A stretch of 64,000 nucleotides of DNA from an uncultured Actinomycetes bacterium (GTDB taxonomy: Bacteria > Actinomycetota > UBA4738 > HRBIN12): the NCBI GenBank assembly GCA_963704885.1, contig CAVPIB010000007.1, positions 64,001 through 128,000 on the forward strand. Direction: 5' to 3'. This document shows, one piece after another, positions 13,292 to 27,949 of the stretch. A program made the position numbers and the translations under genes. The notes under the pieces are model-generated. The model worked only from the letters and a program-made list of their open reading frames with translations, ran no database searches and was not told the DNA's origin. Each line of letters starts with the position of its first letter. Within the stretch, counting starts at the first letter, position 1.

Positions 13292-15356
13292 GTGGCGGTC
13301 GCGCCACCCCGCCGCGTTCGCCCACGCTCGGCGACGCTTCCGCGCCTGGGTCGGCTCTCCAGCCCCCCAATCCGTGGCCGAGGCGCATCGCGTGGGCCGT
13401 GGCGGCGATCGCCGTCGTTTGGATCGGGCTGACGTGGCTGAATCCAGGCTTCTCGGAGCGGTTGGTTGTCGATGTCACCGGCTGGTTCGATGCGTTCCGG
13501 GACTGGGCCATCCAGAACCGCACGACGAGCTGGCTGTTCGTCTACCTGATCACGCCGATCGAGAAGACGATCACGGTTGTCTACGACCAGGTGCTCACGA
13601 TCCTCGAACGCATGACGTGGCTTGGCCTCCTCGTCGGCGCCGCATCGCTTGCTGGCCTCGTCGCAGGTTGGCGCATGGCCCTGCTCACGGCGGCCGGCGT
13701 CTTCACCTTCGGCCTCCTGGGCGTGTGGGAGGAGAGCCTCGAGACGCTCGCGCTTGATGCTGATCTCGGTGGTCACGGCGCTCGCGATCGGGATCCCGAT
13801 CGGGATCTGGGCGGGCCGCCGCCCCAACGTCGAACGCGTGCTCCGACCCATCCTCGATGCGATGCAGACGATCCCCGCTTATGCCTATCTGCTTCCGTTC
13901 GTGTTGCTCTTCGGGATCGGTGAGCCCCCGGCCTTGTTCGCAACCCTGGCGTTCGCGTTGCCACCGGCGATCCGGTTGACAGCCCTCGGGATCCGGACGG
14001 TGCCCGAGACCTCGCTCGAGGTCGCCGACTCGTTCGGTTCCACTATCCGCCAGAAGCTGCGACTGGTGCAGGTGCCCCTCGCGAAGCCGTCGATCATGCT
14101 CGGGGTGAACCAGACGATCATGATGGCGCTCGGCATCGTCGTGATCGCCGCGTTCGTCGGTGCGGGTGGATTGGGACAGAAGGTCCTGGATGGCCTGCAA
14201 CGGCTTAACGTCGGCGAGGCGCTGAACGGTGGGATCGCGATCGTGGTGATGGCGATCGTGCTGGATCGTGTCACGACGGCGTGGAGCCAGCGGGAGCGCC
14301 GGAAGACGAAGCCGCTCAGGGTGTTCGGTCGGGTCATCTCCCGCCGGATGGTGATCACCGCGGCGATCCTGGCGACGATCGCCGCGGTGCTGATCGGCCG
14401 CGAGGTCTTACGCCAGCAGGAGTTCCCGCCCGCCTGGGAGACGTCGGTCGGGGCGCCCGCGAACGCGGTCGTCGATTGGTCGCAGGAGAACCTGGGCGAC
14501 GCCACGAGCGCGATCAGCGACTTCGTTCTGATCAACCTGCTGGACCCGATCCAGGATCTCTTCACAGGCGTCCCCTGGTGGATGATCGCGGGCGCCTTCG
14601 CCTTGATCGCCTGGCGGGTTTCGGGGCTGCGTCTGGGGATCGGTCTGTTCTTGAGCGTGGCGGCGATCGGCATGCTGGGCATGTGGGACTTCGCGATGGG
14701 GACACTCAGCTCGGTCCTGGTCGCGGTGGCGATCACCGTCTCCGTCGCGATCCCGTTGGGGATCCTGGCGGCGCGGAGCGATCGGTTCGAGAAGATCTCG
14801 AAGCCGATCCTTGATGCCATGCAGACGATGCCGGCGTTCGTCTACCTGGTGCCGGTGTTGTTCCTGATGGAGCCGGGTCGCGTGCCGGGGATCATCGCCT
14901 CGTTCATCTACGCCTTGCCGGTCGGTATCCGTCTGACGAACCTGGGGATCCGCGAGGTGCCCAAGGAGATCGTCGAGGCGGGCCGGGCGTTCGGTGCGAC
15001 GTCTTGGCAGCTGCTTCGGAAGGTGCAGCTTCCCCTCGCCCGCCCGTCCATCCTGTTGGGCGTGAACCAGACGATCATGATGGTGCTCTCCGTCGTGATC
15101 ATCGCGGGGTTGATCGGTGCGGCCGGCCTGGGGCAGGAGGTCGTGTTCGCGCTGGGGAAGCAGCAGATCGGACGGGGGGTCGTGGCCGGTGTCAGCATCT
15201 TGCTCCTGGCCGTGGTCCTCGACCGTATAACTCAAGCGATGGGGTCGGCGCCGCGGACGATGCGTGGGCCGGTCGGGAATCGGCCTCGGGTGGTGGACTC
15301 GTGTCCGTGCGCTCGTGGAACCGGACGAGATGGTGGAGGGGGAGGAGGACTCATGA
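13292..15356 (+). CDS. proW: Glycine betaine ABC permease with two ProW modules; frameshifts near 13310, 13755 and 15280
   Basis: Two copies of [13 protein letters not shown] / RLT.LGIR.VP / [17 protein letters not shown]; reconstructed end ..EGEEDS* overlaps the next ATG (ATGA). Confidence 0.75.
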
Positions 15357-16381
15357 GGAAGCGGTCGTGGAGGTTGACGGTGGCCGTGATCGCGGTCTTC
15401 GCGCTGGGCTTGGCAGCCTGCAGCGATGTGAGCGAGGAGCCCGCAGACGGTAGTGAGACGGGTGGTACGGCGACCGATGGCACCGAGCCGGCCGTCGCCC
15501 AGTGCGGTAGCGAGACGATCGTCATCGCTGTCAACCCGTGGGTGGGCGCGGCGGCGAACGCGAACGTGGCCAAGGGCATCATGGAGAACGAGATGGGCTG
15601 CACCGTCGAGCTCCAGGAGGTAAACGAGTCGGCGCAGTTCCCGGCGATGGCCGACGGCGATGTCGACGCCACTCTCGAGGTGTGGCCGTCTGGCCACGCG
15701 AAGGACCGCAAGGACTACATCGACAAGGCCGGAACGGTCGTCGATGCCGGCCTGCTCGGCATCATCGGCAACATCGGATGGTTCACCCCGTCCTACGTGG
15801 TGGAGAACAACCCCGATTACGCCACGTGGGAGGGCTTCAAGGACAACGCGGACGAGTTCGCGACGGCCGAGACCGGCGACAAGGGCCGGTTCTTGGGCGC
15901 CGACACGACGTACTCGATCTTCGACGAGGCGATCATCGCGAGCCTGGGGCTGGACCTGGAGGTCGTCTACAGCGGTTCCGAGGCGGCGTCGTTAGCGGCG
16001 CTCGACAAGGCCTACTCGAACCAGGACTCGATCCTCATGTACTGGTGGACCCCCCAGTGGGCCAACGCCAAGTACGACCTGGTCGAGGTCGAGCTCCCTG
16101 CGTACACCGACGAGTGCGGCCAGATCGCTGCCGAGGACCCCGACGCGGCGGTGGGCTACGACTGTGACTATGCGGAGGACGTGCTCTACAAGGCGTTCAG
16201 CGCCGAGCTCGAGACGAAGGACCCGGCGGCGTTCGCGTTCCTGTCGAGCTTCAACTGGACCGATGTCGACCAGAACGAGGTCGCGCTGCAGATCCAGGAA
16301 GGCACCGACCCGGGCGAGGCGGCGCAGACGTGGATCGACGCCAACCCCGACGTTTGGCAGGCGTGGCTGCCGACCGCTTGA
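15353..16381 (+). CDS. Glycine betaine/choline-type ABC substrate-binding lipoprotein (ProX/OpuAC family)
   Basis: RBS GGAGGAGG, signal peptide with LAAC, ATLEVW, GWFTPSY, YWWTPQW. Confidence 0.8.
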
Positions 16382-16403
16382 TGGATCGATAGGAGCATGG
16401 GAT

Positions 16404-16430
16404 GCGGAGCGGCGCTTAGCGCCGCTCCGC
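16404..16430 (+). terminator. GC-rich hairpin after the betaine ABC operon
   Basis: GCGGAGCGGCGC-TTA-GCGCCGCTCCGC, 12-bp perfect stem, no U-tract. Confidence 0.55.
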
Positions 16431-16449
16431 TCCGTGTGAGAGGGGTCCC

Positions 16450-17287
16450 ATGAGCAAGCACGCCCGGCTATCTGTCGGCGGCGACCGAAAGGTGGCTGAG
16501 GCGGGTGGCAATCCGGTGACGGACGGGTTGCGTGCTCGATTCGCGACTGGCGGAACGGCCCTCGGCACCATGGTGTTCGAGTTCAATACGCTGGGGATGC
16601 CGCGGATCCTGTCATCGGCCGGCGCGGACTTCGTGCTGATCGATCTGGAGCACACCGGCTGGGGGATCGATGGCGTTCGTCCGCTGCTCGCGGCCGCGCG
16701 ACGCGGAGGCCGTCGTGCCGATCGCCCGCGTCCAGGGCTCGGCCCGCCACCTGATCTCTCCGGCGCTCGACGCCGGGGCCGCCGGCGTGATGGTGCCGAT
16801 GATCGGCGACGCGATCGAGGCGGAGCGCGTGGTCCACGCGGCGAGATTCGCCCCCAACGGCGGCCGGGGGTTCGGGCTCCTCTATCCGGACCAGCTCGCG
16901 CACGGTGTGGGGGCAGCGATCGAGCGCGCCGAGGCCGAGACGCTGGTGATACTGCAGATCGAGACGACATCCGGCGTGGCCCATGTCGAGGAGATCGCGG
17001 TCACGCCCGGAGTGGACGTGCTTTGGGTCGGAGAGTTCGACCTGAGTGTGTCGATGGGGATCCCGGGGGGATTCGACGACCCGCGCCTGCGCGAGGCCGA
17101 GGATCGCGTGGTAGCGGCGTGCTCGGACGCGGGGATCGCGGCGGGCATGCTGGTCGCGGATGTCGATGCAGCCCGCTCGATGCTGGAACGCGGCTTCCGG
17201 ATGATCGCGCTGGGTTCGGACATCGACCTCTACGGTCGCGCCCTGCGGAGCGGACTAGAAGAGCTCAGGAGCGAGCGGCTCCAGTGA
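16450..17287 (+). CDS. HpcH/HpaI aldolase family protein; frameshift near 16705
   Basis: GADFVLIDLEHT, then ALDAGAAGVMVPMI, RFAPNGGRG, LQIET..GV..VEEI...PGVD.LWVGEFDLS. Confidence 0.75.
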
Positions 17288-17295
17288 GGCGACCG

Positions 17296-17322
17296 GTGGT
17301 GTTGCTGGGTCCGCAACACCAC
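17296..17322. promoter_or_regulatory. Operator-like palindrome GTGGTGTTGC-TGGGTCC-GCAACACCAC (GTTGC-N7-GCAAC)
   Basis: Upstream of the corrinoid operon; same core and spacing as the 12182 site. Confidence 0.55.
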
Positions 17323-17383
17323 ACTTGCCACCGCAACAGCTGAGTCCCACCATCATGGGTGTGGAGGAACCGCTGAGGAGACC

Positions 17384-18079
17384 ATGAGCGACGACGAGCT
17401 GGATCTCTCAGCACTGCCCGACGACGAGCTGACGAAGCAGATGCACGACGACCTCTACGACGGGTTGGCCCCCGAGATCGTGGAGGGCACGAACATCCTG
17501 CTGGGTCGAGGGTGGCCCGCCGACCGCGTGCTGAACGAGGCGCTCGTTGAGGGCATGCGCATAGTCGGGATCGACTTCCGAGACGGCATCCTGTTCGTGC
17601 CGGAGGTCCTTCTGGCCGCGAACGCCATGAAGGCCGGGATGGAGATCCTGCGACCGCTCCTGGCCGAGACGGGGGCCGCCCGGACCGGCAAGGTGGTGAT
17701 CGGCACCGTGAAAGGCGATATCCATGACATCGGGAAGAACCTGGTGGCCATGATGCTCGAGGGCGCCGGCTTCGAGGTTGTCGATCTGGGCATCAACAAC
17801 CCGGTCGAGAGCTACCTGGCTGCGCTCGAGGAGCACGAGCCCGACATCCTGGGGATGTCCGCGCTGCTGACCACGACCATGCCCTACATGAAGGTCGTTA
17901 TCGACGAGCTGGTGGCCAAGGGTCTGCGCGAGAGGTACATCGTCATGGTGGGGGGCGCACCGCTGAACGAGGAGTTCGGCAGGGCCGTGGGCGCGGACGC
18001 GTACTGCCGCGACGCGGCCGTGGCCGCCGAGACCGCTCAGGCGTTGGTGATGGCTCGCCGTGCAGCCGCGACTGCTTGA
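17384..18079 (+). CDS. Corrinoid (B12-binding) protein, MtbC/MttC-like
   Basis: Cap domain FVPEVLLAANAMKAG, GTVKGDIHDIGKNLV (DxHxxG), GMSALLTTTM, VGGAP. Confidence 0.9.
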   Translation: MSDDELDLSALPDDELTKQMHDDLYDGLAPEIVEGTNILLGRGWPADRVLNEALVEGMRIVGIDFRDGILFVPEVLLAANAMKAGMEILRPLLAETGAARTGKVVIGTVKGDIHDIGKNLVAMMLEGAGFEVVDLGINNPVESYLAALEEHEPDILGMSALLTTTMPYMKVVIDELVAKGLRERYIVMVGGAPLNEEFGRAVGADAYCRDAAVAAETAQALVMARRAAATA

Positions 18080-18716
18080 CGACGAGGTCACGTTCGAGGC
18101 CGCGGGCGCCTCGGGCGGGTTGCTCGTCATCGCCTGCGGCGCGATCGCGCGCGAGGTCCTGGCGGTGATCCGGTTGAACGGATGGACCCACGTCACGCTG
18201 CGGTGCCTTCCGGCCAAACTGCACAACACGCCGTCGCGGATCGCGGAGGCGGTGGACGCGAAGCTGGCGGAGTCCGCCGGGCGCTACGACGACGTGTTCG
18301 TCGCCTATGGTGACTGCGGGACGGCCGGCGCGCTCGACCGCGTGCTCGACGAGCGAGGCGTGGAGCGGTTGCCCGGCGATCATTGTTACGGCTTCTTCGC
18401 GGGCGTCGAGGCATTCGCCGCCATGCACGAGGCGAACCCGTACACGTTCTACCTGACCGACTTCCTCTGTCGACACTTCGACCGACTGGTCGTGCAGGGT
18501 CTGAAGCTCGACACGCAACCTGAGCTCTTGCCCACGATCTTCGGGAACTACCGGCGCCTGGTGTACCTCTCGCAGACCGACGACCCATCGCTGGTCGCGC
18601 AGGCGCGCGCCGCCGCCGACTTCCTGGGGCTCGCGTTCGAGCATCGCCGGAGCGCGTACGGCGATCTCCAGCCCTCGCTGGAGGCGTTCGTGGGAGGAGC
18701 GGCCGATGGCCGCTGA
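18060..18716 (+). CDS. DUF1638 family protein (start uncertain)
   Basis: VIACGAIARE, CLPAKLHNTP..I, YGDCGTAG.LD, HCY.FF, TFYLTDFL; typical of corrinoid methyltransferase clusters. Confidence 0.75.
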   Translation: MQPRLLDDEVTFEAAGASGGLLVIACGAIAREVLAVIRLNGWTHVTLRCLPAKLHNTPSRIAEAVDAKLAESAGRYDDVFVAYGDCGTAGALDRVLDERGVERLPGDHCYGFFAGVEAFAAMHEANPYTFYLTDFLCRHFDRLVVQGLKLDTQPELLPTIFGNYRRLVYLSQTDDPSLVAQARAAADFLGLAFEHRRSAYGDLQPSLEAFVGGAADGR

Positions 18717-19014
18717 GCTCACGGTGATCTGGTGGCGCGACATCCCGGCGCAGGTCGTGGCGAAGTCGGGACGTACGACTGCCCGTGTGCAACTGACGGA
18801 CCGGTTCCAGGAGGCGATCGACATGGCCGCGACCCGGGCCGGCCTGATCGGTACCGACGACTACCTGGCCGAGTGGCGCCGCGAGTCCCACCCCTGCGGC
18901 GACGATCTGGAGGCAGAGGCGGCCGCCGAGGCACATCGCCTGGAACAGACGTACGGCGACGCGGCGTTGGATGTCCTCACCAGGGCCGGCGGATCGGCCG
19001 AGGCGGGCTCGTGA
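18706..19014 (+). CDS. Small conserved protein of the so-called virulence factor family found in B12 methyltransferase clusters
   Basis: WRDIPAQV, L.DRFQEAID.AA, GTDDYLAEWRR. Confidence 0.65.
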   Translation: MAAELTVIWWRDIPAQVVAKSGRTTARVQLTDRFQEAIDMAATRAGLIGTDDYLAEWRRESHPCGDDLEAEAAAEAHRLEQTYGDAALDVLTRAGGSAEAGS

Positions 19015-19943
19015 CCGACACGGTCCTCAGCTCGGCGAGCCGCGAGGTCGTGATCGGCAGCGGCCGCCCGTTCGTGATCATCGGAGAGCGGATCAATCCG
19101 ACGGGGCGCAAGAAGCTCGCCGAGGAGATGAAGGCCGGCGACTTCTCGACCGTGGTGACCGACGCGCTTGCGCAGGTCGAAGCGGGCGCCCAGATGCTGG
19201 ACGTGAACGCCGGCATCCCGCTCGCAGATGAGCCGGCGATCCTGGCCGAGACGATCAAGCTGGTTCAATCGCTCACCGACGTGCCGCTGTCGATCGACTC
19301 GTCGATCGTTGCGGCGCTCGAGGCCGGCCTCGCCGTGTATCAGGGCAAGCCTCTCGTCAACTCCGTGACCGGCGAGGACGAGCGTCTGGAGCAGGTCCTG
19401 CCTCTCGTGGCCAAGTACGGCGCCGCCGTCGTAGCGATCACGAACGACGAGACCGGGATCAGCGAGGATCCCGACGTGCGCTTCGCGGTCGCGGAGAAGA
19501 TCGTCCAGCACGCCGCCGACCACGGGATCGGGCCCGAAGACATCGTGGTCGATCCGCTGGTGATGCCGATCGGCGCCATGGGGACCGCGGGCCGCCAGGT
19601 GTTCACGCTCGTCCGCCGGCTGAGCCAGGAGCTTGGCGTCAACACCACGTGCGGCGCATCCAACGTGAGCTTCGGCCTGCCCAACCGCAACGCGCTGAAC
19701 GGGGCGTTCCTGTCCATGGCGATCGCGTCGGGCATGACCTCGGCGATCACGAGTCCGCTGCACGAGGAGGTCCGCGCCGCGGTGATGGCGGCAGACGTGA
19801 TGATGGGCAACGACCAGGACTGCGGCGCGTGGATCGCGAGCTTCCGCGAGCAACCGGCCGGGGGTACGGGCGGACGGCGTGGCGGCCGTGAAGGACGCCG
19901 GCGGGCTGCGACCGAGGCAGGGGAGGCCTCGCCCCCGTCGTGA
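19011..19943 (+). CDS. Methyltetrahydrofolate:corrinoid methyltransferase (pterin-binding domain, AcsE/MetH-pterin-like)
   Basis: IIGERINPTGRKKL, QVEAGAQMLDVNAG, PLSIDSS, KPLVNSVTGE, GASNVSFGLPNR; GTGA overlap. Confidence 0.88.
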   Translation: MTDTVLSSASREVVIGSGRPFVIIGERINPTGRKKLAEEMKAGDFSTVVTDALAQVEAGAQMLDVNAGIPLADEPAILAETIKLVQSLTDVPLSIDSSIVAALEAGLAVYQGKPLVNSVTGEDERLEQVLPLVAKYGAAVVAITNDETGISEDPDVRFAVAEKIVQHAADHGIGPEDIVVDPLVMPIGAMGTAGRQVFTLVRRLSQELGVNTTCGASNVSFGLPNRNALNGAFLSMAIASGMTSAITSPLHEEVRAAVMAADVMMGNDQDCGAWIASFREQPAGGTGGRRGGREGRRRAATEAGEASPPS

Positions 19944-21978
19944 ACGCCGCGACCGACGCACTCGTCGTCTTCACGCCCTCGGGCCAGCGGGGGCGGTTCG
20001 CGCACGGGACGAACCTTCTCGACGCGGCTCGCGCTCTGGGCGTGGATCTGGACTCGGTCTGCGGCGGGCGCGGGATCTGTGGGCGCTGCCAGGTGGTCGT
20101 GGCCGAGGGCGAGTTCGCGAAGCACGCGATCACGTCCAGCGCGGAGCACCTGACGCCTTTCTCGGCACCGGAGCAGGCCTATCGAGACCGATCCGGTCTG
20201 GCGCCGGAGCGCAGATTGGGTTGCCATTCGCGCGTGCTCGGGGACCTGGTCGTGGACGTGCCGCCGGAGAGTCAGCTCCATCGACAGGTCGTACGGAAGG
20301 AGGCCGACGCCCACGCGATCGAGGTCGATCCGGTCGTTCGGCTGCATTACGTCGAGGTGCGCGAGCCGGACATGAGCGATCCGTCCGGCGATCTGGAGCG
20401 CGTGCTCGAGTCATTGGAACGAGATTGGTCGCTCACCGGGCTGGACTGCGACGACCATGTGCTCGCGGTCCTACAGCGAACCCTTCGCGCCGGCGACTGG
20501 ACGGCGACGGTCGCCGTGCACGACGGTTCGACGATCGTGGGTGTTTGGCCGGGGTTCCACGACCGCATGTTCGGTGTGGCCTTCGACGTGGGGTCGACCA
20601 CCGTGGCGGGACACCTGTGCGACCTGGCGAGCGGGGAGGTCCTGGCGTCGGCCGGCGCCATGAACCCGCAGATCCGGTTCGGCGAGGATCTGATGAGCCG
20701 TGTGTCCTACCTGATGATGAACCCAGGCTCGGAGGGCGAGCTGACGCGCGTGATCCGGTCGTGCGTGAACGAGCTGACCGCGGAGCTTTGCTCGCACGCC
20801 GGCGCCGACGCGACGGACATCCTGGCGCTCACCGTGGTCGGGAACCCGATCATGCACCATCTCTTCCTGGGCCTGGACCCGACCGAACTTGGCGGCGCGC
20901 CGTTCGCCCTGGCCACGGACGGCGCCGTGCACCGGCGGGCCTCTGAGTTCGATCTCCACGTGCACCCCGGCGCGCGTGTATACCTGTTGCCCTGCATCGC
21001 GGGTCATGTGGGTGCGGACACCGCAGGCGTGATCCTGTCCGAGGCGCCCTACGACCAGGAGACCGTGAACCTGATCGTCGATGTCGGGACCAACGCCGAG
21101 ATCGTATTGGGCAACCGCGATCGACTGCTGGCCGCGTCTAGCCCGACCGGCCCTGCGTTCGAAGGCGCTCAGATCAGCTGCGGTCAGCGGGCGGCGCCCG
21201 GCGCGATCGAACGCGTCCGGATCGATCCGGCGACGTTGGAGCCGCGATTCAAGGTGATCGGCAACGACGCGTGGTCTCGACGAAACTGGGTTCGACGCAT
21301 CGCAGGTCACGGGCGTGTGCGGCTCCGGGATCATCGAGGTCGTGGCCGAGATGTTCCTTGCGGGCATCCTCACCACCGACGGCGTGATCGACGGCGGGCT
21401 CGCCTCGCGGACCCCGCGCATCGTTTCCGACGACCGTACGTTCTCCTACGTGCTGCACGAGGGCACGCCCCACCTCGCGATCACGCAGCCGGACATCCGA
21501 GCCATCCAGCTCGCCAAGGCCGCGCTGTATGCGGGGTGCCGGTTGTTGATGGATCACCTCGGTATCGACCACGTCGATCGGATCCGGCTGGCCGGGGCTT
21601 TCGGCGCCCAGATCGATCCGGTGCACGCGCTGATCCTGGGCCTGGTCCCCGACTGCGACCCGTCGCACGTGACGTCCGCCGGCAACGCGGCGGGTACGGG
21701 AGCGCGGATCGCCCTGCTCAACCGTGCCGCGCGCGCCGAGATCGAGGGATGTCGTTCGTCGGGTGGAGAAGATCGAGACGGCCCTGGAGACGCGGTTCCA
21801 GGAGCACTTCGTGGGCGCCATGGGGATCCCACACACGACGGAGCCGTCTCCGCGGCTGGCCGAGGTCGTGGAGCTCCCCGCCCCGCGCACGTCGGGCGGC
21901 GTCACCGGGAACGACCGCCGGAGACGCCGCCGCGTGCCCACGCCCGCAGACGGCACCGACGGAAGGAGCACCGGATGA
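19940..21978 (+). CDS. ASKHA-domain corrinoid reductive activator (RamA/RACo, DUF4445); frameshifts near 21280 and 21748
   Basis: N-terminal 2Fe-2S CGGRGICGRC..RLGC, DVGSTT, NPQIRFGED, DVGTNAE, GPAFEGA, CGSG, IQLAKAA, LAGAFG, GNAAGTGA. Confidence 0.8.
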
Positions 21979-23519
21979 GCGACGAACCCAGGACCGGGCG
22001 AAGGACCGGCGGCCGCGCCGGGAGGCAGGCCGCCCGGCTGGCCGCGGCGCCGGAGCGTGTGCCGTTCATCACCCGGACCCTGCCGCCGTTCGAGGTGCTT
22101 GCCACCGAAGGGCTCGAGCTGATCGAGAACAACGCCGACACGATCTTGGAGCAGGTGGGGATCGACTTCCGCGGCGCACCCGACGCCTTGAAGCTGCTGA
22201 AGGAGGCCGGAGCCGACGTCGACGGCGAGCGCGTCAGGTTCCCTCGGGGGATGTGTCGCCAGCTGATCCAGGCGACCGCCCCGCCGGTGTTCACGCAGTA
22301 CGCGCGCAACCCCGCCAACAACGTCCAGATCGGCGGCGACGCCACGGTCCTGGCGCCCGCCTACGGCTCTCCGTTCGTCCGCGATCTAGACGGTGGACGC
22401 CGGTACGGCACGATCGAAGACTTCCGCAACTTCGTGAAGCTCGCGTACTCGACGCCGTACCTCCATCACTCCGGCGGGACGGTCTGCGAGCCGGTCGACC
22501 TGCCGGTGAACAAGCGGCACTACGACATGGTCTACGCGCACATGCGGTATTCGGACAAGCCGTTCATGGGCTCGGTGACGCATCCGCAGCGCGCCCAGGA
22601 CACGGTGGATATGGCCCGGATCCTCTTCGGTGAGGACTACCTGGAGGACCACACCGTTGTCATGAGCCTGATCAACGCGAACTCGCCACTCGTATGGGAC
22701 TCGACCATGCTGGGCGCCGCGCGCGCGTACGCGCAGGCGAACCAGGCTGTGATCATGACTCCGTTCATCCTGGCCGGGGCTATGAGCCCGGCCACGGTGG
22801 CAGGCGCCGCGGCGCAGACGCTCGCCGAGTCCATGGCCGGCATGACGTACGTGCAACTCGTCCGCCCCGGGGCGCCGGTGGTGTTCGGGTCGTTCGCGTC
22901 GTCGATGTCCATGCAGTCGGGCGCGCCGACGTTCGGCACGCCCGAGCCCGCGCTGGTGCTCTACATCCTGGCGGCGTGCGCACGGAGGCTGAACGTGCCG
23001 TTCCGCAGCGGCGGCTCCCTGTGCGGATCCAAGATCCCGGACGCACAGGCGGCGTACGAGTCGGCGAACACGCTGCAGCCAACCATCCTGGGCGGCGCGA
23101 ACTTCGTGCTGCACGCGGCGGGCTGGCTGGAAGGCGGGCTGACCATGGGTTACGAGAAGTTCGTGATGGACCTGGATCAGTGCGGCATGATGCATGCGTT
23201 CGCGAAGGGAGTGGACCTGTCGCCCAACGGCCAGGCGCTGGACGCCATCATCGAGAACGGACCCGGCCAGCATTTCCTGGGGACGGCTCACACCTTGGCC
23301 AACTTCGAGACAGCGTTCTACCGGTCGTCGATCGCCGACAACAACAGCTACGAGCAGTGGGAGGACGACGGCTCGCTCGACGCGACTCACAGATCCGATG
23401 CCATCTGGAAGAAGATGTTGGCCGACTACGAGCCACCGCCGATAGATGAAGCGGTGGATGCAGAGCTACGAGACTGGATCGAGCGGCAGAAGGCCTCCTT
23501 CCCCGACTCGAACGTGTAA
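21975..23519 (+). CDS. Trimethylamine methyltransferase (MttB) superfamily, non-pyrrolysine; possible glycine betaine:corrinoid methyltransferase
   Basis: RR.GT.EDF, NANSPL, PFILAGAMSP.T.AG, GAPTFGTPE, SKIPDAQAAYES, HAAGWLEGGL; Leu at the Pyl-equivalent position. Confidence 0.85.
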   Translation: MSDEPRTGRRTGGRAGRQAARLAAAPERVPFITRTLPPFEVLATEGLELIENNADTILEQVGIDFRGAPDALKLLKEAGADVDGERVRFPRGMCRQLIQATAPPVFTQYARNPANNVQIGGDATVLAPAYGSPFVRDLDGGRRYGTIEDFRNFVKLAYSTPYLHHSGGTVCEPVDLPVNKRHYDMVYAHMRYSDKPFMGSVTHPQRAQDTVDMARILFGEDYLEDHTVVMSLINANSPLVWDSTMLGAARAYAQANQAVIMTPFILAGAMSPATVAGAAAQTLAESMAGMTYVQLVRPGAPVVFGSFASSMSMQSGAPTFGTPEPALVLYILAACARRLNVPFRSGGSLCGSKIPDAQAAYESANTLQPTILGGANFVLHAAGWLEGGLTMGYEKFVMDLDQCGMMHAFAKGVDLSPNGQALDAIIENGPGQHFLGTAHTLANFETAFYRSSIADNNSYEQWEDDGSLDATHRSDAIWKKMLADYEPPPIDEAVDAELRDWIERQKASFPDSNV

Positions 23520-23533
23520 CCGGAAGGAACCGA

Positions 23534-24409
23534 GTGGCCCTGACGCTTCGACGACGCAAGCAGCACGAGCCCACCCCAGATGAGCGGGGGGCGCTGGCGG
23601 CACTCGTCGCAGGAGCCAAGCTCGAGGTCATCCCGCTCCTGAACGCGCTCGGAACCTGCGAGGCCCTGCCACCCGGTTCGATGGTGACGGTCACCTCGTC
23701 TCCGAGCCACGGGATCGAGGCGACCGTCGAGCTGGCCGAGAAGCTCGCGACGCTCGGCCACACCGTCATCCCGCATCTGTCCGCGCACATGATCTGGACA
23801 CGCCAGCACCTCGAGGACCTGCTGGAGCGCCTGGCGGAAGGAGGCTTCCGTCGCGTGTTCGTCGTGGGCGGCGACGCCCAGGACCACGGCGACTTCCACG
23901 ACGGCCTGTCGTTGCTCCGCGCCATCGACGAGCTCGGCCGTCCGTTCGACGAGATCGGCGTGCCCTCCTACCCCGAGGGTCACCCCAGGATCTCCGACGA
24001 GCGGCTGCTGGAGGTCCTGCTCGAGAAGCAGCGGTACGCGTCGTACATGACCACGCAGATGAGCTTCAACCCGAGCGCCATCGCCGGGTGGATCGGCCGG
24101 ATGCGCGCCTCCGGGGTGACGCTACCGGTCCACATCGGCCTGCCCGGCGTCGCGGACCTCACCAAGCTCATGACGATCGCGGCTCGGATCGGCGTGGCCG
24201 ACTCGGCCCGCTACCTGAAGAAGAACCGCAACCTGATCGGCCAGGTGATCAAGGGTCGTTTCGGCCCCGACGCGCTGCTGCGGGAGCTGGCCCCGACCCT
24301 CGCGGATCCCGCGGCCGACGTCGCAGCGCTCCACGTCTTCACGTTCAACCAGGTCGAGAGAACCGTGGCCTGGCAGCGCGGCATGCTTGGCTCGCTGAGC
24401 ACGGGCTGA
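23534..24409 (+). CDS. metF: Methylenetetrahydrofolate reductase family protein
   Basis: VTVT, VIPHLSA, FVVGGD, YPEGHP, L.EK, TTQMSF, G.TLPVHIG.PG, LHVFTFNQ. Confidence 0.75.
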   Translation: MALTLRRRKQHEPTPDERGALAALVAGAKLEVIPLLNALGTCEALPPGSMVTVTSSPSHGIEATVELAEKLATLGHTVIPHLSAHMIWTRQHLEDLLERLAEGGFRRVFVVGGDAQDHGDFHDGLSLLRAIDELGRPFDEIGVPSYPEGHPRISDERLLEVLLEKQRYASYMTTQMSFNPSAIAGWIGRMRASGVTLPVHIGLPGVADLTKLMTIAARIGVADSARYLKKNRNLIGQVIKGRFGPDALLRELAPTLADPAADVAALHVFTFNQVERTVAWQRGMLGSLSTG

Positions 24410-24473
24410 GGGCTCGCGCGCACCGGGCCGCACCCCCGTAGGTGCCCAGAGTGAGGCGAGGCGAAGCGTCTCC

Positions 24474-25244
24474 TCAAGGCTTCACGGCGCGGATCGGGTA
24501 CCCGTAGGTTCCGAACTGCCGGGCCTGGTCTTCACCGCCGGCTCCGCCGAACGTGTCAACGATGGGTCCGAACTCCACCTCGGTGAGGCCCGCGCCCTGG
24601 ATCACCGTCACCCACCCTGCGCACGGCAGGGCACCTGCTATTCAGCCGGTCCAAAGATCGATGTCGCTGAGCGCGGACTCAGGGACGGGTTCCTCGACGC
24701 AGATGTCAGCGATCTGGGCGCGACCGCCTGGCTTCAGGACCCGGGCGATCTCCCGGTAGGCGCCGAGCTTGTCCGGGACGAGGTTGATCACCCCGTTCGA
24801 GATAACGACATCTGCCCATCCGTCGTCCACAGGGAGCTTCTCGGCGAAACCGTCGCGGAACTCGACGTTTGGGATCTCAGCCTCTTCGGCACCCTCCCGA
24901 GCCCGCTCGAGCATCTCGGGCGTCATGTCGACGCCGACGACGCGCCCTTCGACGCCGACGGCGTTGGCCGCGACCATGGCGTCCATGCCGGTTCCTGAGC
25001 CGACGTCGACGACGCGCTCCCCGGGCCGGGGCAAGCCCCAATGGAACGGGTTGGCTACGCCGGCGAACGACGCGATCGAGGACTTCGGGAGCCCTTCCAA
25101 CCACTCGTCCAGATAGCCCGCATTAGCCGCTGCGCGGAGACCGGTATGGAAATGGAACGTGGCGTCAGGGTGCTCGACGACCTCCACGTACTTGGTCCGG
25201 ATCTCATCGCGCAGCTTGGCGACGTCCACCGCGATCCCGGCCAT
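24474..25244 (-). CDS. ArsM/AS3MT-fold SAM-dependent methyltransferase, probable selenoprotein (in-frame TGA at 24642-24644)
   Basis: VVDVGSGTG.D, GVDMTPEML, DVVISNGVINL.PDK, RVLKPGG...IAD; reading continues DLWTG-(TGA)-IAGALPCAGWVTVIQGAGLTEVEFGPIVDTFGGAGGEDQARQFGTYGYPIRAVKP* with GC-rich codon usage. Confidence 0.8.
24614..24632 (-). other. Putative bacterial SECIS hairpin
   Basis: mRNA after UGA: AUAGCAGGU GCCCUGC CGUGC GCAGGGU; 7-bp stem, apical loop starts 17 nt after UGA with G at loop position 2. Confidence 0.55.
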
Positions 25245-25256
25245 GGTCTTCACTCC

Positions 25257-25622
25257 TCACGCGAACGCCACGGTCTTGGCGCCCGCCACGACCTCCTCGA
25301 CCACCTTGGCCGCGCCGACGATGATAGACCCCTTGCGCACCTGCTCTTCGCCGATGCCCCTGGGCTTCGCGCAAGCCCCACAGATCCAGACCGTGCCGCC
25401 GTTGTCCACGAACTCCTGGTAGAGGTCGTCCAGGACGGGCAGTCCCGGCTGGGCGATGCCGTCCGTTCCGTCCGTGGTCCCGAGCCAAACGGCCTCGATC
25501 GTGCAGAGGACCACTGCTTCTTGCCCGGCCGTCGCTGCGATGTTTGCTGCCACGAAGGGGAGCGTCGCCCGCTCTGGTTCCTCCTTGCCGTACGTGCAGT
25601 TGAAGATCAGCTTCTCGCTCAT
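25257..25622 (-). CDS. DsrE/DsrF-family protein (putative sulfur carrier)
   Basis: T.G.E.PERATLPFVAAN.A, LCTIEAV.L, GGTVWICGAC...RG, IVGAA. Confidence 0.8.
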   Translation of the reverse strand: MSEKLIFNCTYGKEEPERATLPFVAANIAATAGQEAVVLCTIEAVWLGTTDGTDGIAQPGLPVLDDLYQEFVDNGGTVWICGACAKPRGIGEEQVRKGSIIVGAAKVVEEVVAGAKTVAFA

Positions 25623-25624
25623 CC

Positions 25625-26266
25625 TCACCGTCTCCTTTCCACCGTCATCAGGAGGCGTCCGTCATCGGGCGTCTCTATCGATCGAACCTCATGTCCCATC
25701 ATCCGGGCCAGCGGAGGCAGATCCTCTTTCGCCGCGGGATCACGCGCGGTCACCACGAGCACGTCGCCGACCGGGATCGCTCCGATCCGCCGACGGAACT
25801 CCGTGGCCAGGCCGTCAGCGCACCCGAGGTCGCCCGCGTCGTAGGGATGGGCGCCGCTCGACTCATCTCCAGGCCCCATGACCGGAAGGAAGCCCGAGCA
25901 CAGGAGATCGATCCCTTCTAGGCGCCCGTCCGGCGCGACGTCGGCCACCACATGTTGCTCGATCACCTGCCAACCGTCGGCATCGTGGAGGCTGAACCGG
26001 TACGTGAGCACCAGCCGGTCCGCCACGGTTCCGACGTTCGAGGACTCGAGGCGCAGCTCGTCGACGTCTCCGTACCAGCCGACGAACGCCTCAACCGCTT
26101 CGGCGACTCCCGAGTGAGCTTGCGGTCCTTTGGGCAGGAGCAGTCGGAACCGCACGTCGTCGGCGATCAGCGCGTGGAACCTCACGAAGTCGCGATCCGC
26201 AAGGGCCTTGACGAAAGCCTCCCCAACCTTCTGCATGAGGTCTTCGGAGGTCGTTGCGATGGTCAT
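25625..26266 (-). CDS. NTF2/SnoaL-like domain fused to a TusA/SirA-like sulfurtransferase domain
   Basis: N-half F..ALA.RDF....LIADDVRFR...GRLEGIDLLCSGF; C-half DAGDLGC.DGL..EFRR.I...GDVL.V.ARDPAAKEDLPPLARMMGH. Confidence 0.7.
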   Translation of the reverse strand: MTIATTSEDLMQKVGEAFVKALADRDFVRFHALIADDVRFRLLLPKGPQAHSGVAEAVEAFVGWYGDVDELRLESSNVGTVADRLVLTYRFSLHDADGWQVIEQHVVADVAPDGRLEGIDLLCSGFLPVMGPGDESSGAHPYDAGDLGCADGLATEFRRRIGAIPVGDVLVVTARDPAAKEDLPPLARMMGHEVRSIETPDDGRLLMTVERRR

Positions 26267-26272
26267 GAGGCG

Positions 26273-26317
26273 ACGATAGGCAGAGCGCGCCCGTGCCACA
26301 TGAGGCGTCTACCCCAT
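26273..26317 (-). promoter_or_regulatory. Promoter of the NTF2-TusA operon: inverted repeat ATGGGG-N6-CCTCAT (26300-26317) and -10 TATCGT (26273-26278), probably leaderless
   Basis: The -10 element lies 6 nt before ATG 26266; the palindrome is centred 42.5 nt upstream of that ATG. Confidence 0.5.
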
Positions 26318-26331
26318 CTTTGGGGCGGATA

Positions 26332-27897
26332 TCAGTCGGCTACGGCAGCCACGTCGATCAAGCCATGCCGCATCGCGAAGAGCGCAGCCGCACCGCGGCT
26401 CCTTACGCCGAGTTTGGCGTAGATGTGCTCCTCGTGGTTGCTGACCGTCTTGGCCGAGATGGTCAACTCCTGCGCGATCTGCTTCTGGGTCGATCCGCGA
26501 GATAGCAGTACCAGTACCTCGACCTCGCGGGCGGTGAGCCCGCCCGCATGGCTCGTCTTACGGCGCACCCGATGCCCGGCTGCGTCCAGCACCGCGCGAA
26601 CGGCGTCGCCGTCCAGGCGACCATCGGTCACCTCCGCTGTGAGCACTGTTCGGGCCTCGTCCCGCGGCCACGCGGCGCGATGGGGTCGCGGTTCCAGCAG
26701 CGCGTGGTACACGTCGGCGGCCGCGATCACACGTGCGGTCATCGGGAGGCTGTCGGCCGTTAGGCCCGACGGGTAGCCGGATCCGTCCATCCGCTCATGG
26801 TGCTTCGCCGCGAGCTGCCCTATCGCGGCTAGAGGCGGGGGCTTGGAGAACGTTCGCGCCGTGAGATAGGGATGGGTGCGGATCCGCTCTCGTTCGGCCT
26901 CGGTGAGCGGCCCGACCTTGTCCAAGATCCCGGCCGGAACACCGATGGAACCTACGTCGTGGATGAGCGAGGCTCGACGCACGAGCACGATGTCGTCGTT
27001 AGGCAGACCGACGATGGCGGCCGCGGCCGCCGCAAGATCCGCGACGCCTCGGGAACGTCCGAGCAAGAACGGCGACTTCACGTCCGCGTAGTCGGCGAAG
27101 GCTTCCAACGCTCGATCGAGTTCCTCACCGCTGAGCTCACGCGCCAGCTCGCCGTGCCCGCCGATCAGCGTGTCCCAGCCGTCGAGCTCGTCTATGGAGG
27201 CGAGCAGCTCGTCGGCATGGATGCAGAACCGGTCGACGAGCTCTGGATCGAACTCCGTGCCACGTCGGGAGCGAAGCATCTCGACAGCCGCGTCCACCCC
27301 GCCTATCCGATGTAGGGCCTCAACGTCGTTGGCGATATGGACGATCCGCGCTATGCGGGCGATCTCGCCACCCGCCAACTTGGCCGGATAGCCCTTGCCG
27401 TCCCAGCGTTCGAACGCTTGCTGCAGCGGGTCACGCACTTCGGGACCCAGTCCGAGTCGGAGCGACAGGTCGCCCGAGGTCTCACAGTGGGAGGCCATCG
27501 AGCGCTGGACCTCCTTAGACCCGCCCGCGAGGAACCTGCCGATCATCGTGAACCGCCGGATCGCCGAGCTCCCGCTGGCGACGTGACCGATCATGAAGCG
27601 CATCATCGGCAAACCGGTCATGTCGACGAGGTAGCTGTCGGCCCGCACGGCTGTGTCGTCGCCGAACCACTTGCCCATCTCGTGCGCGTCGGCCACGCAA
27701 CCGACCCACGCGAGGAGCGACACGTAGAAGATCGCGGCCCGCTCGTCGTCGGACAGGCCCTCGAGCTCGGCCATGCGCAGGGCGATAAGCGTCTGCCGGA
27801 TGATGTGCTGCTGCGGTTGACCCAGTCCTAGATCCGTCGCCAGCGACAGCGCCGCCACCAGCTCAGCTAGCCGAACGCCGTCTCCGGCTCCCGTCAT
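26332..27897 (-). CDS. HD-GYP domain / LuxR-HTH transcriptional regulator
   Basis: RLAELVAALSLATDLGLGQP, degenerate first HD, FERWDGKGYP, LIHDVG, HHERMDGSGYP, AAADVYHAL.E.RPHR, C-terminal LTAREVEVL...IA..L.IS.KTV.NH..HIY.KLGV. Confidence 0.88.
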   Translation of the reverse strand: MTGAGDGVRLAELVAALSLATDLGLGQPQQHIIRQTLIALRMAELEGLSDDERAAIFYVSLLAWVGCVADAHEMGKWFGDDTAVRADSYLVDMTGLPMMRFMIGHVASGSSAIRRFTMIGRFLAGGSKEVQRSMASHCETSGDLSLRLGLGPEVRDPLQQAFERWDGKGYPAKLAGGEIARIARIVHIANDVEALHRIGGVDAAVEMLRSRRGTEFDPELVDRFCIHADELLASIDELDGWDTLIGGHGELARELSGEELDRALEAFADYADVKSPFLLGRSRGVADLAAAAAAIVGLPNDDIVLVRRASLIHDVGSIGVPAGILDKVGPLTEAERERIRTHPYLTARTFSKPPPLAAIGQLAAKHHERMDGSGYPSGLTADSLPMTARVIAAADVYHALLEPRPHRAAWPRDEARTVLTAEVTDGRLDGDAVRAVLDAAGHRVRRKTSHAGGLTAREVEVLVLLSRGSTQKQIAQELTISAKTVSNHEEHIYAKLGVRSRGAAALFAMRHGLIDVAAVAD

Positions 27898-27949
27898 CTC
27901 CCCAGGGTACAAGTGCACGCAGCTGGCCTGGGGACCGCCCGACAGCGGG

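What the first reader, a model, noticed from the sequence alone, without database searches (positions are those of the whole stretch)
24474..25244. Hidden selenoprotein: ArsM-fold methyltransferase with in-frame UGA and SECIS-like hairpin, missing other As-binding cysteines
Seen: the ORF track stops at DLWTG*, but the frame continues TGA-IAGALPC... for 55 codons to a stop at 24474, and a hairpin (GCCCUGC-CGUGC-GCAGGGU) starts 10 nt after the UGA. Established: arsenite methyltransferases (ArsM/AS3MT) have a conserved Cys in W.GC(I/L)(A/G)GAL, and bacterial SECIS elements lie just 3' of the UGA with a G early in the apical loop. Seen: two other canonical Cys motifs (GCGNP, SNCV.NL) read GVANP and SNGVINL here. 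Inference: this is a Sec enzyme whose chemistry differs from classical arsenite methylation, for example methylation of a persulfide, thiol, selenide or tellurium species.
Basis: partly seen in the sequence, partly recalled or inferred. Interest (0 to 1): 0.85.

Follow-up and report, generated by a model that had tools for sequence, protein, structure and literature searches.

The report
Selenocysteine methyltransferase related to ArsM
The gene really does encode a selenocysteine-containing relative of arsenic methyltransferases that gene callers cut short, but such selenoproteins are already known; what is new is that this widespread branch has lost the other arsenic-binding cysteines and sits beside sulfur-carrier genes.

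Summary
The minus-strand ORF 25244-24477 reads through a TGA at 24644-24642, giving 256 aa with U201. A 7-bp/5-nt hairpin starts 10 nt after the UGA.

Evidence that it is a real selenoprotein gene:
- The own genome has tRNA-Sec, selA, selB and selD.
- 69 of 80 related loci, carrying seven phylum labels, keep the TGA. Ten have TGC and one has TAG.
- The 55-codon extension is as conserved as the body of the gene.
- The hairpin is kept with compensatory changes in TGA forms and lost in TGC forms.
- selA was found in 36 of 38 Sec-form genomes and 5 of 10 Cys-form genomes.

Sec sits at the CmArsM Cys224 site. No family member has Cys at the Cys72 or Cys174 sites. The genome also carries a canonical arsR-arsM pair elsewhere. 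Neighbours are enriched in rhodanese, DsrE-like, TusA-like and MBL-rhodanese genes.

ArsM selenoproteins with the same UxxG Sec site have been in print since 2007-2008 and are modelled in NCBIfam, so this is a variant of a known kind. Its substrate is untested. My best guess, about 0.4, is sulfane sulfur or sulfide; selenium or tellurium comes next.

The parts
24474..25244 (-). Full selenoprotein gene: ATG 25244-25242 to the terminal TGA 24476-24474. It encodes 256 aa, an ArsM-like class I SAM methyltransferase with U201.
   Evidence: translation. Pfam Methyltransf_31, 107 bits. NCBIfam ArsM-type models, 192-227 bits, all below their cut-offs; full-length relatives that read through one TGA.
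24642..24644 (-). In-frame UGA, codon 201, read as selenocysteine. It is the position of CmArsM Cys224 in the W-x-G-C/U-I-A-G motif.
   Evidence: alignment to 4fr0/5evj. TGA in 69, TGC in 10 and TAG in 1 of 80 related loci; the column is invariant once U is written as C.
24614..24632 (-). SECIS-like hairpin. 5' arm 24632-24626, loop CGUGC 24625-24621, 3' arm 24620-24614. It starts 10 nt after the UGA.
   Evidence: fold; 52 of 69 TGA loci have all 7 pairs (mean 6.7), while the 10 TGC loci average 3.4 of 7; 95.8% of cells paired, two pairs with compensatory changes, 0 of 500 shuffles reach the observed value, slid controls 22-52% paired.
24477..24641 (-). 55-codon C-terminal extension, residues 202-256, which gene callers drop. 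It includes C208.
   Evidence: amino-acid identity 0.600 here against 0.602 for residues 1-200, with the same codon-position pattern (position 3 > 1 > 2); 119 of the 120 listed database proteins stop at 195-221 aa.
25257..25628 (-). DsrE/DsrF-like gene (123 aa) directly upstream. Its stop codon lies 12 nt before the methyltransferase ATG, so the two are probably co-transcribed.
   Evidence: coordinates. PF02635, 41.7 bits; the only match to this protein in the 3.0-Mb genome.
25625..26299 (-). SnoaL-like plus TusA-like gene (224 aa). It overlaps the DsrE-like start by 4 nt and is the first gene of the apparent three-gene operon.
   Evidence: PF12680, 31.5 bits, and PF01206, 32 bits; the same pair lies next to the methyltransferase in the closest relatives, L043 and L044.

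Best explanation
SHOWN. This is a genuine bacterial selenoprotein gene. It encodes a 256-aa ArsM-fold, SAM-dependent methyltransferase in which UGA codon 201 is decoded as selenocysteine. Decoding uses a SECIS hairpin that starts 10 nt downstream and the genome's own SelA/SelB/SelD/tRNA-Sec system. Sec occupies the substrate-binding Cys224 position of CmArsM.

The gene belongs to a distinct family found under seven phylum labels. The family has lost the Cys72 and Cys174 equivalents and has an invariant H-F-H-T-G motif in its N-terminal region. Automatic gene calling routinely truncates it at 200 aa.

INFERRED, about 0.4 for this particular substrate class. The enzyme does not methylate arsenite. 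Instead it methylates a chalcogen species held on the selenolate, most likely sulfane sulfur or sulfide. In this proposal a persulfide carrier (rhodanese, DsrE-like or TusA-like neighbour) passes sulfur to Sec201, giving Se-S(-). The terminal sulfur attacks the SAM methyl, as the As lone pair does in ArsM. Methanethiol is then released when a thiol attacks the Se-S bond: C208 where present, otherwise an external thiol. The confidence figure below is for the selenoprotein identity plus non-arsenite chemistry in general, not for the detailed cycle.
For: Sec machinery in the own genome:
- tRNA-Sec, 70.9 bits, anticodon TCA.
- selA 493 bits, selB 321 bits, selD 373 bits.

Conservation of the UGA and the extension:
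- Ten other genomes among 60 relatives have a full-length match with exactly one TGA.
- Of 80 loci from public genomes, 69 have TGA, 10 TGC and 1 TAG at codon 201.
- The extension is under the same coding constraint as the body of the gene.

SECIS hairpin:
- 95.8% of cells are paired.
- Compensatory changes C-G to G-C occur in 21 sequences and C-G to U-A in 10.
- 0 of 500 shuffles reach the observed value.
- TGC forms lose the hairpin, averaging 3.4 of 7 pairs against 6.7.

Link to the Sec trait:
- selA was found in 36 of 38 Sec-form genomes, 5 of 10 Cys-form genomes and 0 of 1 TAG-form genome.
- A SelB winged-helix domain occurs in 3 of the 149 adjacent ORFs.

Not a classical ArsM:
- V/T/M/I at the GCGNP Cys position in 81 of 81 rows.
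- G151 invariant at the SNC position in 80 of 80 rows.
- CmArsM C174A and C224A are inactive on both As(III) and MAs(III) (PMC3877260, passages).
- NF008823 scores 199 bits against a cut-off of 263.
- A canonical arsR-arsM pair with all three motifs lies elsewhere in the genome.
- The family is separated from canonical ArsM by a long branch with support 100 (quick tree).

Sulfur context:
- DsrE-like and TusA-like genes share the operon.
- Rhodanese is the commonest domain among the 149 ORFs within 381 nt of the gene, with 18 members, followed by ArsR-type HTH with 14.
- 34 of 80 loci have a rhodanese-fusion, MBL-rhodanese, DsrE-like or TusA-like gene within 3 kb (22 of the 49 loci with full flanks).
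- The same queries find only 4 places in the whole 3.0-Mb genome, which gives a chance expectation of about 1% per window.
Against: - No selenium incorporation, expression or activity data exist for this protein.
- The hairpin is not more stable than shuffled sequence (z = 0.29), and no Rfam family matches it.
- The sulfur context is absent from 46 of 80 loci. The only cultured carrier found, Pseudonocardia zijingensis (L110), has the gene beside ileS and divIVA-like genes with no sulfur genes.
- ArsR-type regulators are also typical of arsenic operons.
- C208 is present in only 47 of 81 rows, so it cannot be an essential resolving residue for the family.
- Relatives are not independent and many are incomplete MAGs, so the selA contrast overstates its own significance.
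Confidence: 0.8

Rival explanations
1. It is a selenium or tellurium methyltransferase. Sec201 binds selenide or a tellurium species as a Se-Se or Se-Te adduct, and SAM methylates it to volatile methylselenol, DMSe or DMTe for detoxification. The rhodanese and TusA/DsrE-like neighbours would carry selenium rather than sulfur.
For: The structural arguments are the same as for the best explanation: a single Sec at the substrate site and loss of the As-binding cysteines. The family is nearly confined to genomes with the Sec trait, and selB is adjacent in three loci. Rhodaneses are known to handle selenium as well as sulfur; this last point is recalled from general knowledge and comes from no call.
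Against: The MBL-rhodanese neighbour looks like a persulfide dioxygenase fusion. It lies within 3 kb in 19 of 80 loci. Together with the DsrE/TusA pairs it points first to sulfur. Nothing computed here can tell sulfur from selenium.
Confidence: 0.2
2. It is a classical arsenic methyltransferase that merely uses Sec in place of one Cys. It would methylate As(III), MAs(III) or Sb(III), with C182, C208 and/or the His pair replacing the missing ligands.
For: The best family-level matches are ArsM models and solved ArsM structures. The ArsM selenoprotein in print has the same UxxG site. ArsR-type regulators are frequent neighbours. The closest clade has two extra Cys, C182 and C208.
Against: The Cys174 equivalent, needed for both As(III) and MAs(III) in CmArsM, is Gly in 80 of 80 rows. 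C182 is confined to the nearest clade and C208 to 47 of 81 rows. The genome already has a canonical arsR-arsM pair. No arsenic-specific family is among the 25 commonest neighbour domains. Only those top 25 were shown, so rare cases are not excluded.
Confidence: 0.1
3. It methylates some other small molecule or protein thiol, and Sec201 acts only as a redox switch or regulatory residue, not as the substrate-holding site.
For: Class I methyltransferases are versatile. H2S/MeSH methyltransferases of the UbiE/UbiG type, MddH and MddM1/2, need no Sec. A second small class I methyltransferase is adjacent in about 10 of the 149 neighbouring ORFs.
Against: Sec sits exactly at the substrate-ligand position of ArsM. 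It lies in the most conserved block of the family, L197 W198 U201 I202 A203 G204, all invariant.
Confidence: 0.1
4. The TGA is a true stop. The gene makes a 200-aa protein, or is a pseudogene, and the downstream frame is open by chance in GC-rich DNA.
For: Every automatic gene call stops there. GC-rich DNA gives long chance ORFs. One relative, L085, has TAG at this codon.
Against: The extension is conserved at 60% amino-acid identity with a coding pattern of substitutions. Cys-codon homologues are full length. The hairpin co-varies and disappears in TGC forms. The Sec machinery is present.
Confidence: 0.02

Closest known systems
Arsenite S-adenosylmethionine methyltransferase ArsM/AS3MT (CmArsM, PDB 4fr0/4fs8; Chlamydomonas ArsM, 5evj)
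   Same: Same fold and the same motif order. phmmer E-values are 6e-24 to 1e-20. The W-x-G-C/U-(I/L)-x-G-A-L block is conserved, with Sec at the Cys224 position.
   Different: - 3 of the 4 conserved cysteines are missing: V63 for Cys72 and G151 for Cys174, and no Cys at all in residues 1-181.
- It falls below the NF008823 cut-off.
- It is separated by a long branch in the tree.
- An invariant HFHTG motif stands in the N-terminal region.
'Arsenite methyltransferase' selenoprotein of the literature (Fomenko et al. 2007 Science; Zhang & Gladyshev 2008; Table 1 of PMC13188914: NF008823, motif UxxG, one Sec)
   Same: A Sec-containing ArsM homologue with Sec in a UxxG motif; here the motif is U-I-A-G.
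   Different: I could not see the representative sequence (WP_011987699.1) or the 2007 paper. I therefore cannot say whether those proteins keep the other cysteines, or whether the eight GOS sequences belong to this same family. The reviews I read in passages do not discuss loss of the As-binding cysteines or a sulfur-carrier context.
NCBIfam selenoprotein fusions: NF041537 (ArsM/AhpD domain), NF041536 (ArsM/DUF2284) and NF047649 (methyltransferase/UXPK-star), from Haft & Tolstoy 2025
   Same: These are the best-scoring models for the methyltransferase part: 227, 197 and 192 bits over residues 6-225. All 80 family members match them. They have the same UxxG Sec site according to Table 1 of PMC13188914.
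   Different: - The scores are far below the cut-offs of 510, 575 and 460.
- The protein is a stand-alone 256 aa with a single Sec. It has no AhpD or DUF2284 domain and no C-terminal UXPK.
- The source paper is not held, so its discussion was not seen.
H2S/methanethiol S-methyltransferases MddA, MddH and MddM1/MddM2
   Same: They have the function I propose: SAM-dependent methylation of reduced sulfur for detoxification. MddM enzymes are common in Actinomycetota (abstracts and passages).
   Different: They belong to different families (membrane MddA; UbiE or UbiG type, 204-210 aa). The two papers do not mention Sec or ArsM (0 occurrences of 'selen' and 'arsm').
Persulfide-responsive sulfide-detoxification operons (ArsR-family BigR/SqrR-type regulator with an MBL-rhodanese persulfide dioxygenase) and DsrE-TusA sulfur relays
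   Same: The neighbour set is of the same kind: an ArsR-HTH fused to rhodanese, an MBL fused to two rhodaneses, and DsrE-like and TusA-like genes.
   Different: The comparison with BigR/Blh and DsrE3-TusA is recalled from general knowledge and was not tested by any search. Those systems are not known to me to include a methyltransferase or a selenoprotein.

Membership tests
Bacterial selenoprotein gene | An in-frame UGA that is conserved in orthologues, with conserved coding sequence downstream | tested here: met
   69 of 80 loci have TGA. Ten related genomes each have exactly one TGA. The extension shows 0.600 amino-acid identity against 0.602 upstream, with the same codon-position pattern.
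Bacterial selenoprotein gene | Cys in place of Sec in some homologues (a Sec/Cys pair) | tested here: met
   Ten of 80 loci have TGC at the same codon. They form one clade nested inside the Sec forms. Canonical ArsMs have Cys there.
Bacterial selenoprotein gene | A SECIS stem-loop immediately 3' of the UGA | tested here: met
   A 7-bp stem and 5-nt loop start 10 nt after the UGA. 95.8% of cells are paired, two pairs co-vary and 0 of 500 shuffles reach the observed value. The hairpin is lost in TGC forms. G is the second loop base in 59 of 69 loops. The published consensus for bacterial SECIS elements is recalled from memory, and no dedicated SECIS program was available. Rfam gave no match.
Bacterial selenoprotein gene | selA, selB, selC and selD present in the genome | tested here: met
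   all are above the curated cut-offs.
Bacterial selenoprotein gene | Selenium actually incorporated into the protein | not testable with these tools
   This needs 75Se labelling or mass spectrometry. Contigs from RNA libraries of relatives bridge the UGA (X17 record 13 and X19 record 17). That shows at most transcription.
ArsM/AS3MT arsenite methyltransferase | Class I SAM-binding methyltransferase domain of the ArsM type | tested here: met
   Pfam Methyltransf_31, 107 bits. Solved ArsM chains are the best PDB matches.
ArsM/AS3MT arsenite methyltransferase | As(III)-binding cysteines equivalent to CmArsM Cys72, Cys174 and Cys224 | tested here: not met
   Only the Cys224 site is kept, as Sec. 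The Cys72 site is V/T/M/I in 81 of 81 rows. The Cys174 site is Gly in 80 of 80 rows. The need for these residues is taken from passages of PMC3877260.
ArsM/AS3MT arsenite methyltransferase | Score above the curated NCBIfam cut-off (NF008823, 263 bits) | tested here: not met
   199.1 bits.
NCBIfam ArsM-fusion selenoproteins (NF041537, NF041536, NF047649) | Score above the cut-off, plus the second domain or second Sec | tested here: not met
   227, 197 and 192 bits against cut-offs of 510, 575 and 460. The matches cover only profile positions 8-227. The protein ends at residue 256 with a single Sec.
Mdd-type H2S/MeSH S-methyltransferases | Sequence membership in the MddA, MddH or MddM families, and methanethiol/DMS production | not tested

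The most novel reading that the evidence does not exclude
This family is a selenocysteine-dependent sulfane-sulfur methyltransferase. Persulfide carriers (rhodanese, DsrE-like, TusA-like) load sulfur onto Sec201, SAM methylates the Se-S(-) adduct, and methanethiol is released. That would be a previously unrecognised, selenium-dependent route from sulfide or persulfide to volatile methylated sulfur. It would occur in soil and sediment Actinomycetota, Chloroflexota, Dormibacterota and others, and it would be invisible in annotations because the gene is always truncated at the UGA.
Probability: 0.3. Interest if true: 0.8.

Novelty: new variant of a known kind. Interest (0 to 1): 0.55.

Why it matters
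Three things follow if the reading holds.

1. A whole family found under seven phylum labels is systematically mis-annotated. Of the 120 listed database entries, 119 are truncated products of 195-221 aa, some named 'arsenite methyltransferase'. Surveys that count arsM genes to estimate arsenic methylation potential may therefore include proteins that cannot bind As(III) in the classical way.

2. It is a clean natural experiment on the ArsM active site. One ligand is kept and upgraded to Sec, while the others are lost.

3. The repeated neighbourhood of persulfide-handling genes makes a concrete question testable. Does a selenoenzyme methylate sulfane sulfur, or selenium or tellurium? That bears on microbial production of volatile sulfur and selenium compounds.

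Tried and rejected
- Thermodynamic test of the hairpin. It is not more stable than shuffles, so I dropped energy as evidence and used comparative data instead.
- Rfam scan of 24400-24800 at E up to 10. No family matched.
- Structure prediction of the family alignment A2, to measure distances from U201, C208, C182 and H31/H33 to SAM.
- Sequencing runs. No run holds more than 0.22 of the sampled words. Laying X1, X2, X17 and X19 at 85% likeness gave only contigs of relatives. No difference at 24642-24644 is among the rows shown, but 153 rows were not shown, so I make no claim from it. A sequencing error at the TGA is excluded anyway by the 69 independent loci.
- Pseudonocardia zijingensis (L110) as a cultured example with informative context. 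Its neighbours are ileS, DivIVA- and SepF-like genes, which tells nothing about function.
- Literature. Searches found no paper on a Cys-poor ArsM-like selenoprotein linked to rhodanese, DsrE or TusA. Haft & Tolstoy 2025 (mSystems) and Fomenko et al. 2007 (Science) are not held. They and their supplements may already describe this family.
- MddH and MddM papers. They concern unrelated methyltransferase families, so a match to a characterised enzyme was rejected.
- In the script my counters for G151 and C182 were off by one residue. I rely instead on the printed motif strings and the invariant-column list.
- The careful tree did not finish in the time allowed. Only the quick IQ-TREE tree (SH-aLRT support, midpoint root) is reported.
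Full report
**What is in the sequence.**
On the minus strand, an ORF that table 11 closes after ...DIDLWTG at TGA 24644-24642 continues in frame for 55 codons to a second TGA at 24476-24474. From ATG 25244 the read-through product is 256 aa with the UGA at codon 201. A GAGGAG stretch lies a few bases upstream of that ATG. It overlaps the stop codon of the preceding gene, which ends 12 nt before the ATG.

Nine bases after the UGA comes a hairpin: GCCCUGC (24632-24626), loop CGUGC, GCAGGGU (24620-24614). It appears in the minimum-energy fold. The 66-nt stretch is no more stable than shuffled GC-rich sequence (z = 0.29; 112 of 200 shuffles fold at least as well), so energy alone proves nothing.

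**Is it a selenoprotein gene?**
The window's genome (3.0 Mb, 20 contigs) has the full Sec machinery, all above curated cut-offs:
- a tRNA-Sec, 70.9 bits, called SeC with anticodon TCA by ARAGORN;
- selA at 493 bits, selB at 321 bits next to selA, and selD at 373 bits.

In the large protein database, 119 of the 120 listed hits are 195-221 aa and cover only 76-78% of the query. Gene callers everywhere stop at this codon.

Six-frame searches tell another story.
- Among 60 relatives, ten genomes have a match to residues 1-256 (or 2/3/8-256, or 1-255) at 50-91% identity with exactly one TGA inside.
- A scan of one genome per species returned 80 loci at 50-92% identity. By the records' own titles they come from Actinomycetota, Chloroflexota, Dormibacterota, Acidobacteriota, Gemmatimonadota, Pseudomonadota and Eisenbacteria.
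- At codon 201, 69 of the 80 have TGA, 10 have TGC and one (L085) has TAG.
- Residues 202-256 are as conserved as residues 1-200: amino-acid identity to the window is 0.600 against 0.602. Nucleotide differences fall in the same coding pattern in both parts, position 3 at 0.52, position 1 at 0.29 and position 2 at 0.25.

**The hairpin.**
- In a fixed register (nt 10-16 pairing with nt 22-28 after the UGA), 52 of the 69 TGA loci form all seven pairs and 14 form six, a mean of 6.7. The ten TGC loci average 3.4 of 7.
- On the 70-sequence alignment A1, 95.8% of cells pair.
- Two stem positions show compensatory double changes: C-G to G-C in 21 sequences and C-G to U-A in 10. That is 31 such cells against 8.9 expected, and 0 of 500 shuffles reach it.
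- Sliding the 3' arm by 1-3 columns drops pairing to 22-52%.
- The loop has G as its second base in 59 of 69 loci.
- In the nine loci with a CCCGU loop, the sequence can also be drawn as a 4-bp stem with a CGUGC loop. This is my own reading of the alignment.
- Rfam has no matching family.

**Link to the Sec trait.**
- selA was found in 36 of 38 Sec-form genomes examined, in 5 of 10 Cys-form genomes and not in the TAG-form genome. These genomes are related to one another and many are incomplete, so this is supportive, not a statistical test.
- Three of the 149 ORFs adjacent to the gene carry a SelB winged-helix domain.
- In a quick maximum-likelihood tree the ten Cys forms are one clade (support 97) nested among Sec forms. 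This fits a single Sec-to-Cys replacement.

I regard the selenoprotein status as established as far as sequence analysis can take it.

**What kind of protein is it?**
Pfam sees a class I SAM methyltransferase (Methyltransf_31, 107 bits). The best solved relatives are arsenite methyltransferases (5evj, 4fr0/4fs8, 4kw7, 5eg5; E from 6e-24 to 1e-20). In those alignments:
- U201 pairs with the Cys of GEC(L)xGAL;
- V63 pairs with the Cys of GCGNP;
- G151 pairs with the Cys of SNCVINL.

By CmArsM numbering (PMC3877260, passages) these are Cys224, Cys72 and Cys174. That paper states that C174A and C224A are inactive on both As(III) and MAs(III), and that C72A is inactive on As(III).

Across the family:
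- the Cys72 position is V, T, M or I in 81 of 81 rows;
- G151 is invariant in 80 of 80 rows;
- the window protein has no Cys at all before residue 182;
- other invariant positions include H31, F32, T34 and G35 (the HFHTG motif, with H33 nearly invariant) and L197, W198, U201, I202, A203 and G204;
- C208 (U-x6-C) is present in 47 of 81 rows, and C182 only in the nearest clade.

NCBIfam's ArsM model NF008823 gives 199 bits against a cut-off of 263. The best-scoring models are three selenoprotein 'exception' models: ArsM/AhpD at 227 bits, ArsM/DUF2284 at 197 and methyltransferase/UXPK-star at 192. All are far below their cut-offs and match only the methyltransferase part.

In the tree the family is separated from canonical three-Cys ArsMs by a long branch with support 100. 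The same genome also carries an ordinary arsR-arsM pair on another contig, with GCGNP, SNCVINL and GCIAGAL intact. A second Sec-containing ArsM-like group (WAGU[L/V]SGA) in related genomes also lacks the first two cysteines and has its own hairpin.

**Surroundings.**
In the window the gene is the last of three tightly packed minus-strand genes:
- a SnoaL-like plus TusA-like protein (25625-26299);
- a DsrE/DsrF-like protein (25257-25628);
- the methyltransferase.

An HD-GYP/LuxR regulator lies upstream.

Across the 80 loci:
- The commonest Pfam domain among the 149 ORFs lying within 381 nt of the gene is rhodanese (18). Next come the ArsR-type HTH (14; mostly ArsR-rhodanese fusions just upstream on the same strand), a second small class I methyltransferase (10) and MFS transporters (5).
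- An MBL-fold protein fused to two rhodanese domains lies within 3 kb in 19 loci, a DsrE-like gene in 13 and the SnoaL-TusA gene in 6.
- In all, 34 of 80 loci have at least one of these, or 22 of the 49 loci with 3 kb on both sides.
- As a rough control, the same queries at the same threshold find only four places in the whole 3.0-Mb genome, one of them this locus. That gives about 1% expected per window.
- No arsenic-specific family is among the 25 commonest neighbour domains (only the top 25 of 102 were shown).
- The context is not universal: 46 of 80 loci lack it, and the cultured carrier Pseudonocardia zijingensis has unrelated neighbours.

**How it most likely works.**
Shown:
- SECIS-dependent insertion of Sec at the ArsM substrate-ligand position;
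- loss of the other As(III) ligands;
- a separate canonical ArsM in the same genome;
- association with persulfide-handling genes.

Inferred: the substrate is not arsenite but a chalcogen species held on the selenolate. My preferred version, at about 0.4, runs as follows.
1. A rhodanese, DsrE-like or TusA-like carrier delivers sulfane sulfur to Sec201, giving Se-S(-).
2. The terminal sulfur attacks the SAM methyl, in the place where the arsenic lone pair does so in ArsM.
3. A thiol, C208 where present, resolves the Se-S bond and releases methanethiol.

The conserved His pair could act as a base or help bind the substrate.

A selenium or tellurium substrate is the main rival (about 0.2). Classical or modified arsenic or antimony methylation is at about 0.1. 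A redox-regulatory role for Sec is at about 0.1. A true stop codon is at about 0.02.

**Comparison with what is known.**
ArsM-type selenoproteins are not new.
- The 2026 review PMC13188914 (Table 1, read in passages) lists 'Arsenite methyltransferase, NF008823, motif UxxG, one Sec, WP_011987699.1'. It places this among experimentally verified selenoproteins, citing Fomenko et al. 2007.
- The same table lists the three fusion families of Haft & Tolstoy 2025.
- The 2008 GOS analysis (PMC2398784, passages) lists eight Sec-containing ArsM sequences.

The motif here, U-I-A-G, is the same site. I could read neither Fomenko 2007 nor Haft & Tolstoy 2025, and I could not see the representative sequence. 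So I cannot tell whether the Cys-poor, sulfur-linked form has been pointed out before. My searches found no such description. The characterised H2S/MeSH methyltransferases MddH and MddM1/M2 belong to other families and involve no Sec.

**Verdict.**
It is a real, conserved, systematically mis-called selenoprotein gene. It belongs to a known kind, the ArsM-fold selenoproteins with Sec at the UxxG site. Within that kind it represents a distinct, widespread variant with a remodelled active site and a sulfur-trafficking neighbourhood. Its substrate is unknown and worth testing.

Noticed in passing
window 13622-24409 (+ strand): Convergent with the selenoprotein operon lies what looks like a quaternary-amine (glycine-betaine type) demethylation cluster. 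It holds an OpuAC/permease ABC transporter, a B12-binding corrinoid protein, DUF1638, a pterin-binding methyltransferase, the RACo activase, an MttB-family methyltransferase with no in-frame stop (756 bits) and an MTHFR-like gene.
   Followed up: partly
window 19940-23519: The RACo activase appears split between two reading frames. ORF 19940-22633 holds Fer2, the RACo linker and middle regions and RACo_C_ter positions 2-78. ORF 21315-23519 starts with RACo_C_ter positions 74-223 and runs on, without a stop, into the MttB domain. This could be a frameshift, an assembly error or a fusion; I did not resolve it.
   Followed up: no
G000:C1, locus L123 4795-5894: The same genome has a canonical arsR-arsM pair. 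The ArsR is 119 aa with a CVC motif. The ArsM is 247 aa with GCGNP, SNCVINL and GCIAGAL, and its start overlaps the arsR stop.
   Followed up: partly
L085 (Geodermatophilus sp. MAG), codon 201 of the orthologue: This locus has TAG instead of TGA at the Sec codon, while the downstream frame and the hairpin sequence are still recognisable. No selA was found in that genome. It may be a relic left after loss of the Sec trait, or the result of an incomplete MAG or a sequencing error.
   Followed up: partly
L035, L038, L039 (genomes G042, G032, G027): A second ArsM-like selenoprotein group with the motif WAGU(L/V)SGA. It also has GVGNP and SNGV(I/M)NL in place of the cysteine motifs. It carries its own 7-9-bp hairpin with a CGGGU, CGUGU or CGUGC loop about 12-14 nt after the UGA. 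In the quick tree it groups with canonical ArsMs rather than with the window's family.
   Followed up: partly
protein P0003 (431 aa; metagenome contig) and locus L026: In some close relatives the upstream ArsR-HTH/rhodanese gene and the methyltransferase lie in one open frame, called as a 431-aa fusion that again ends at the UGA. I did not determine whether this is a true fusion or a mis-called start.
   Followed up: no
G000:C20:5731-6654 and G000:C14:8433-9356: There are two selD matches with the same score (372.7 bits) on two small contigs. This may be a real duplication or assembly redundancy.
   Followed up: no
window 26332-27918 (-): An HD-GYP (HD_5) plus LuxR-type HTH regulator lies just upstream of the three-gene operon. 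A homologue lies within 3 kb of the methyltransferase in 8 of the 81 loci compared, the window included.
   Followed up: no
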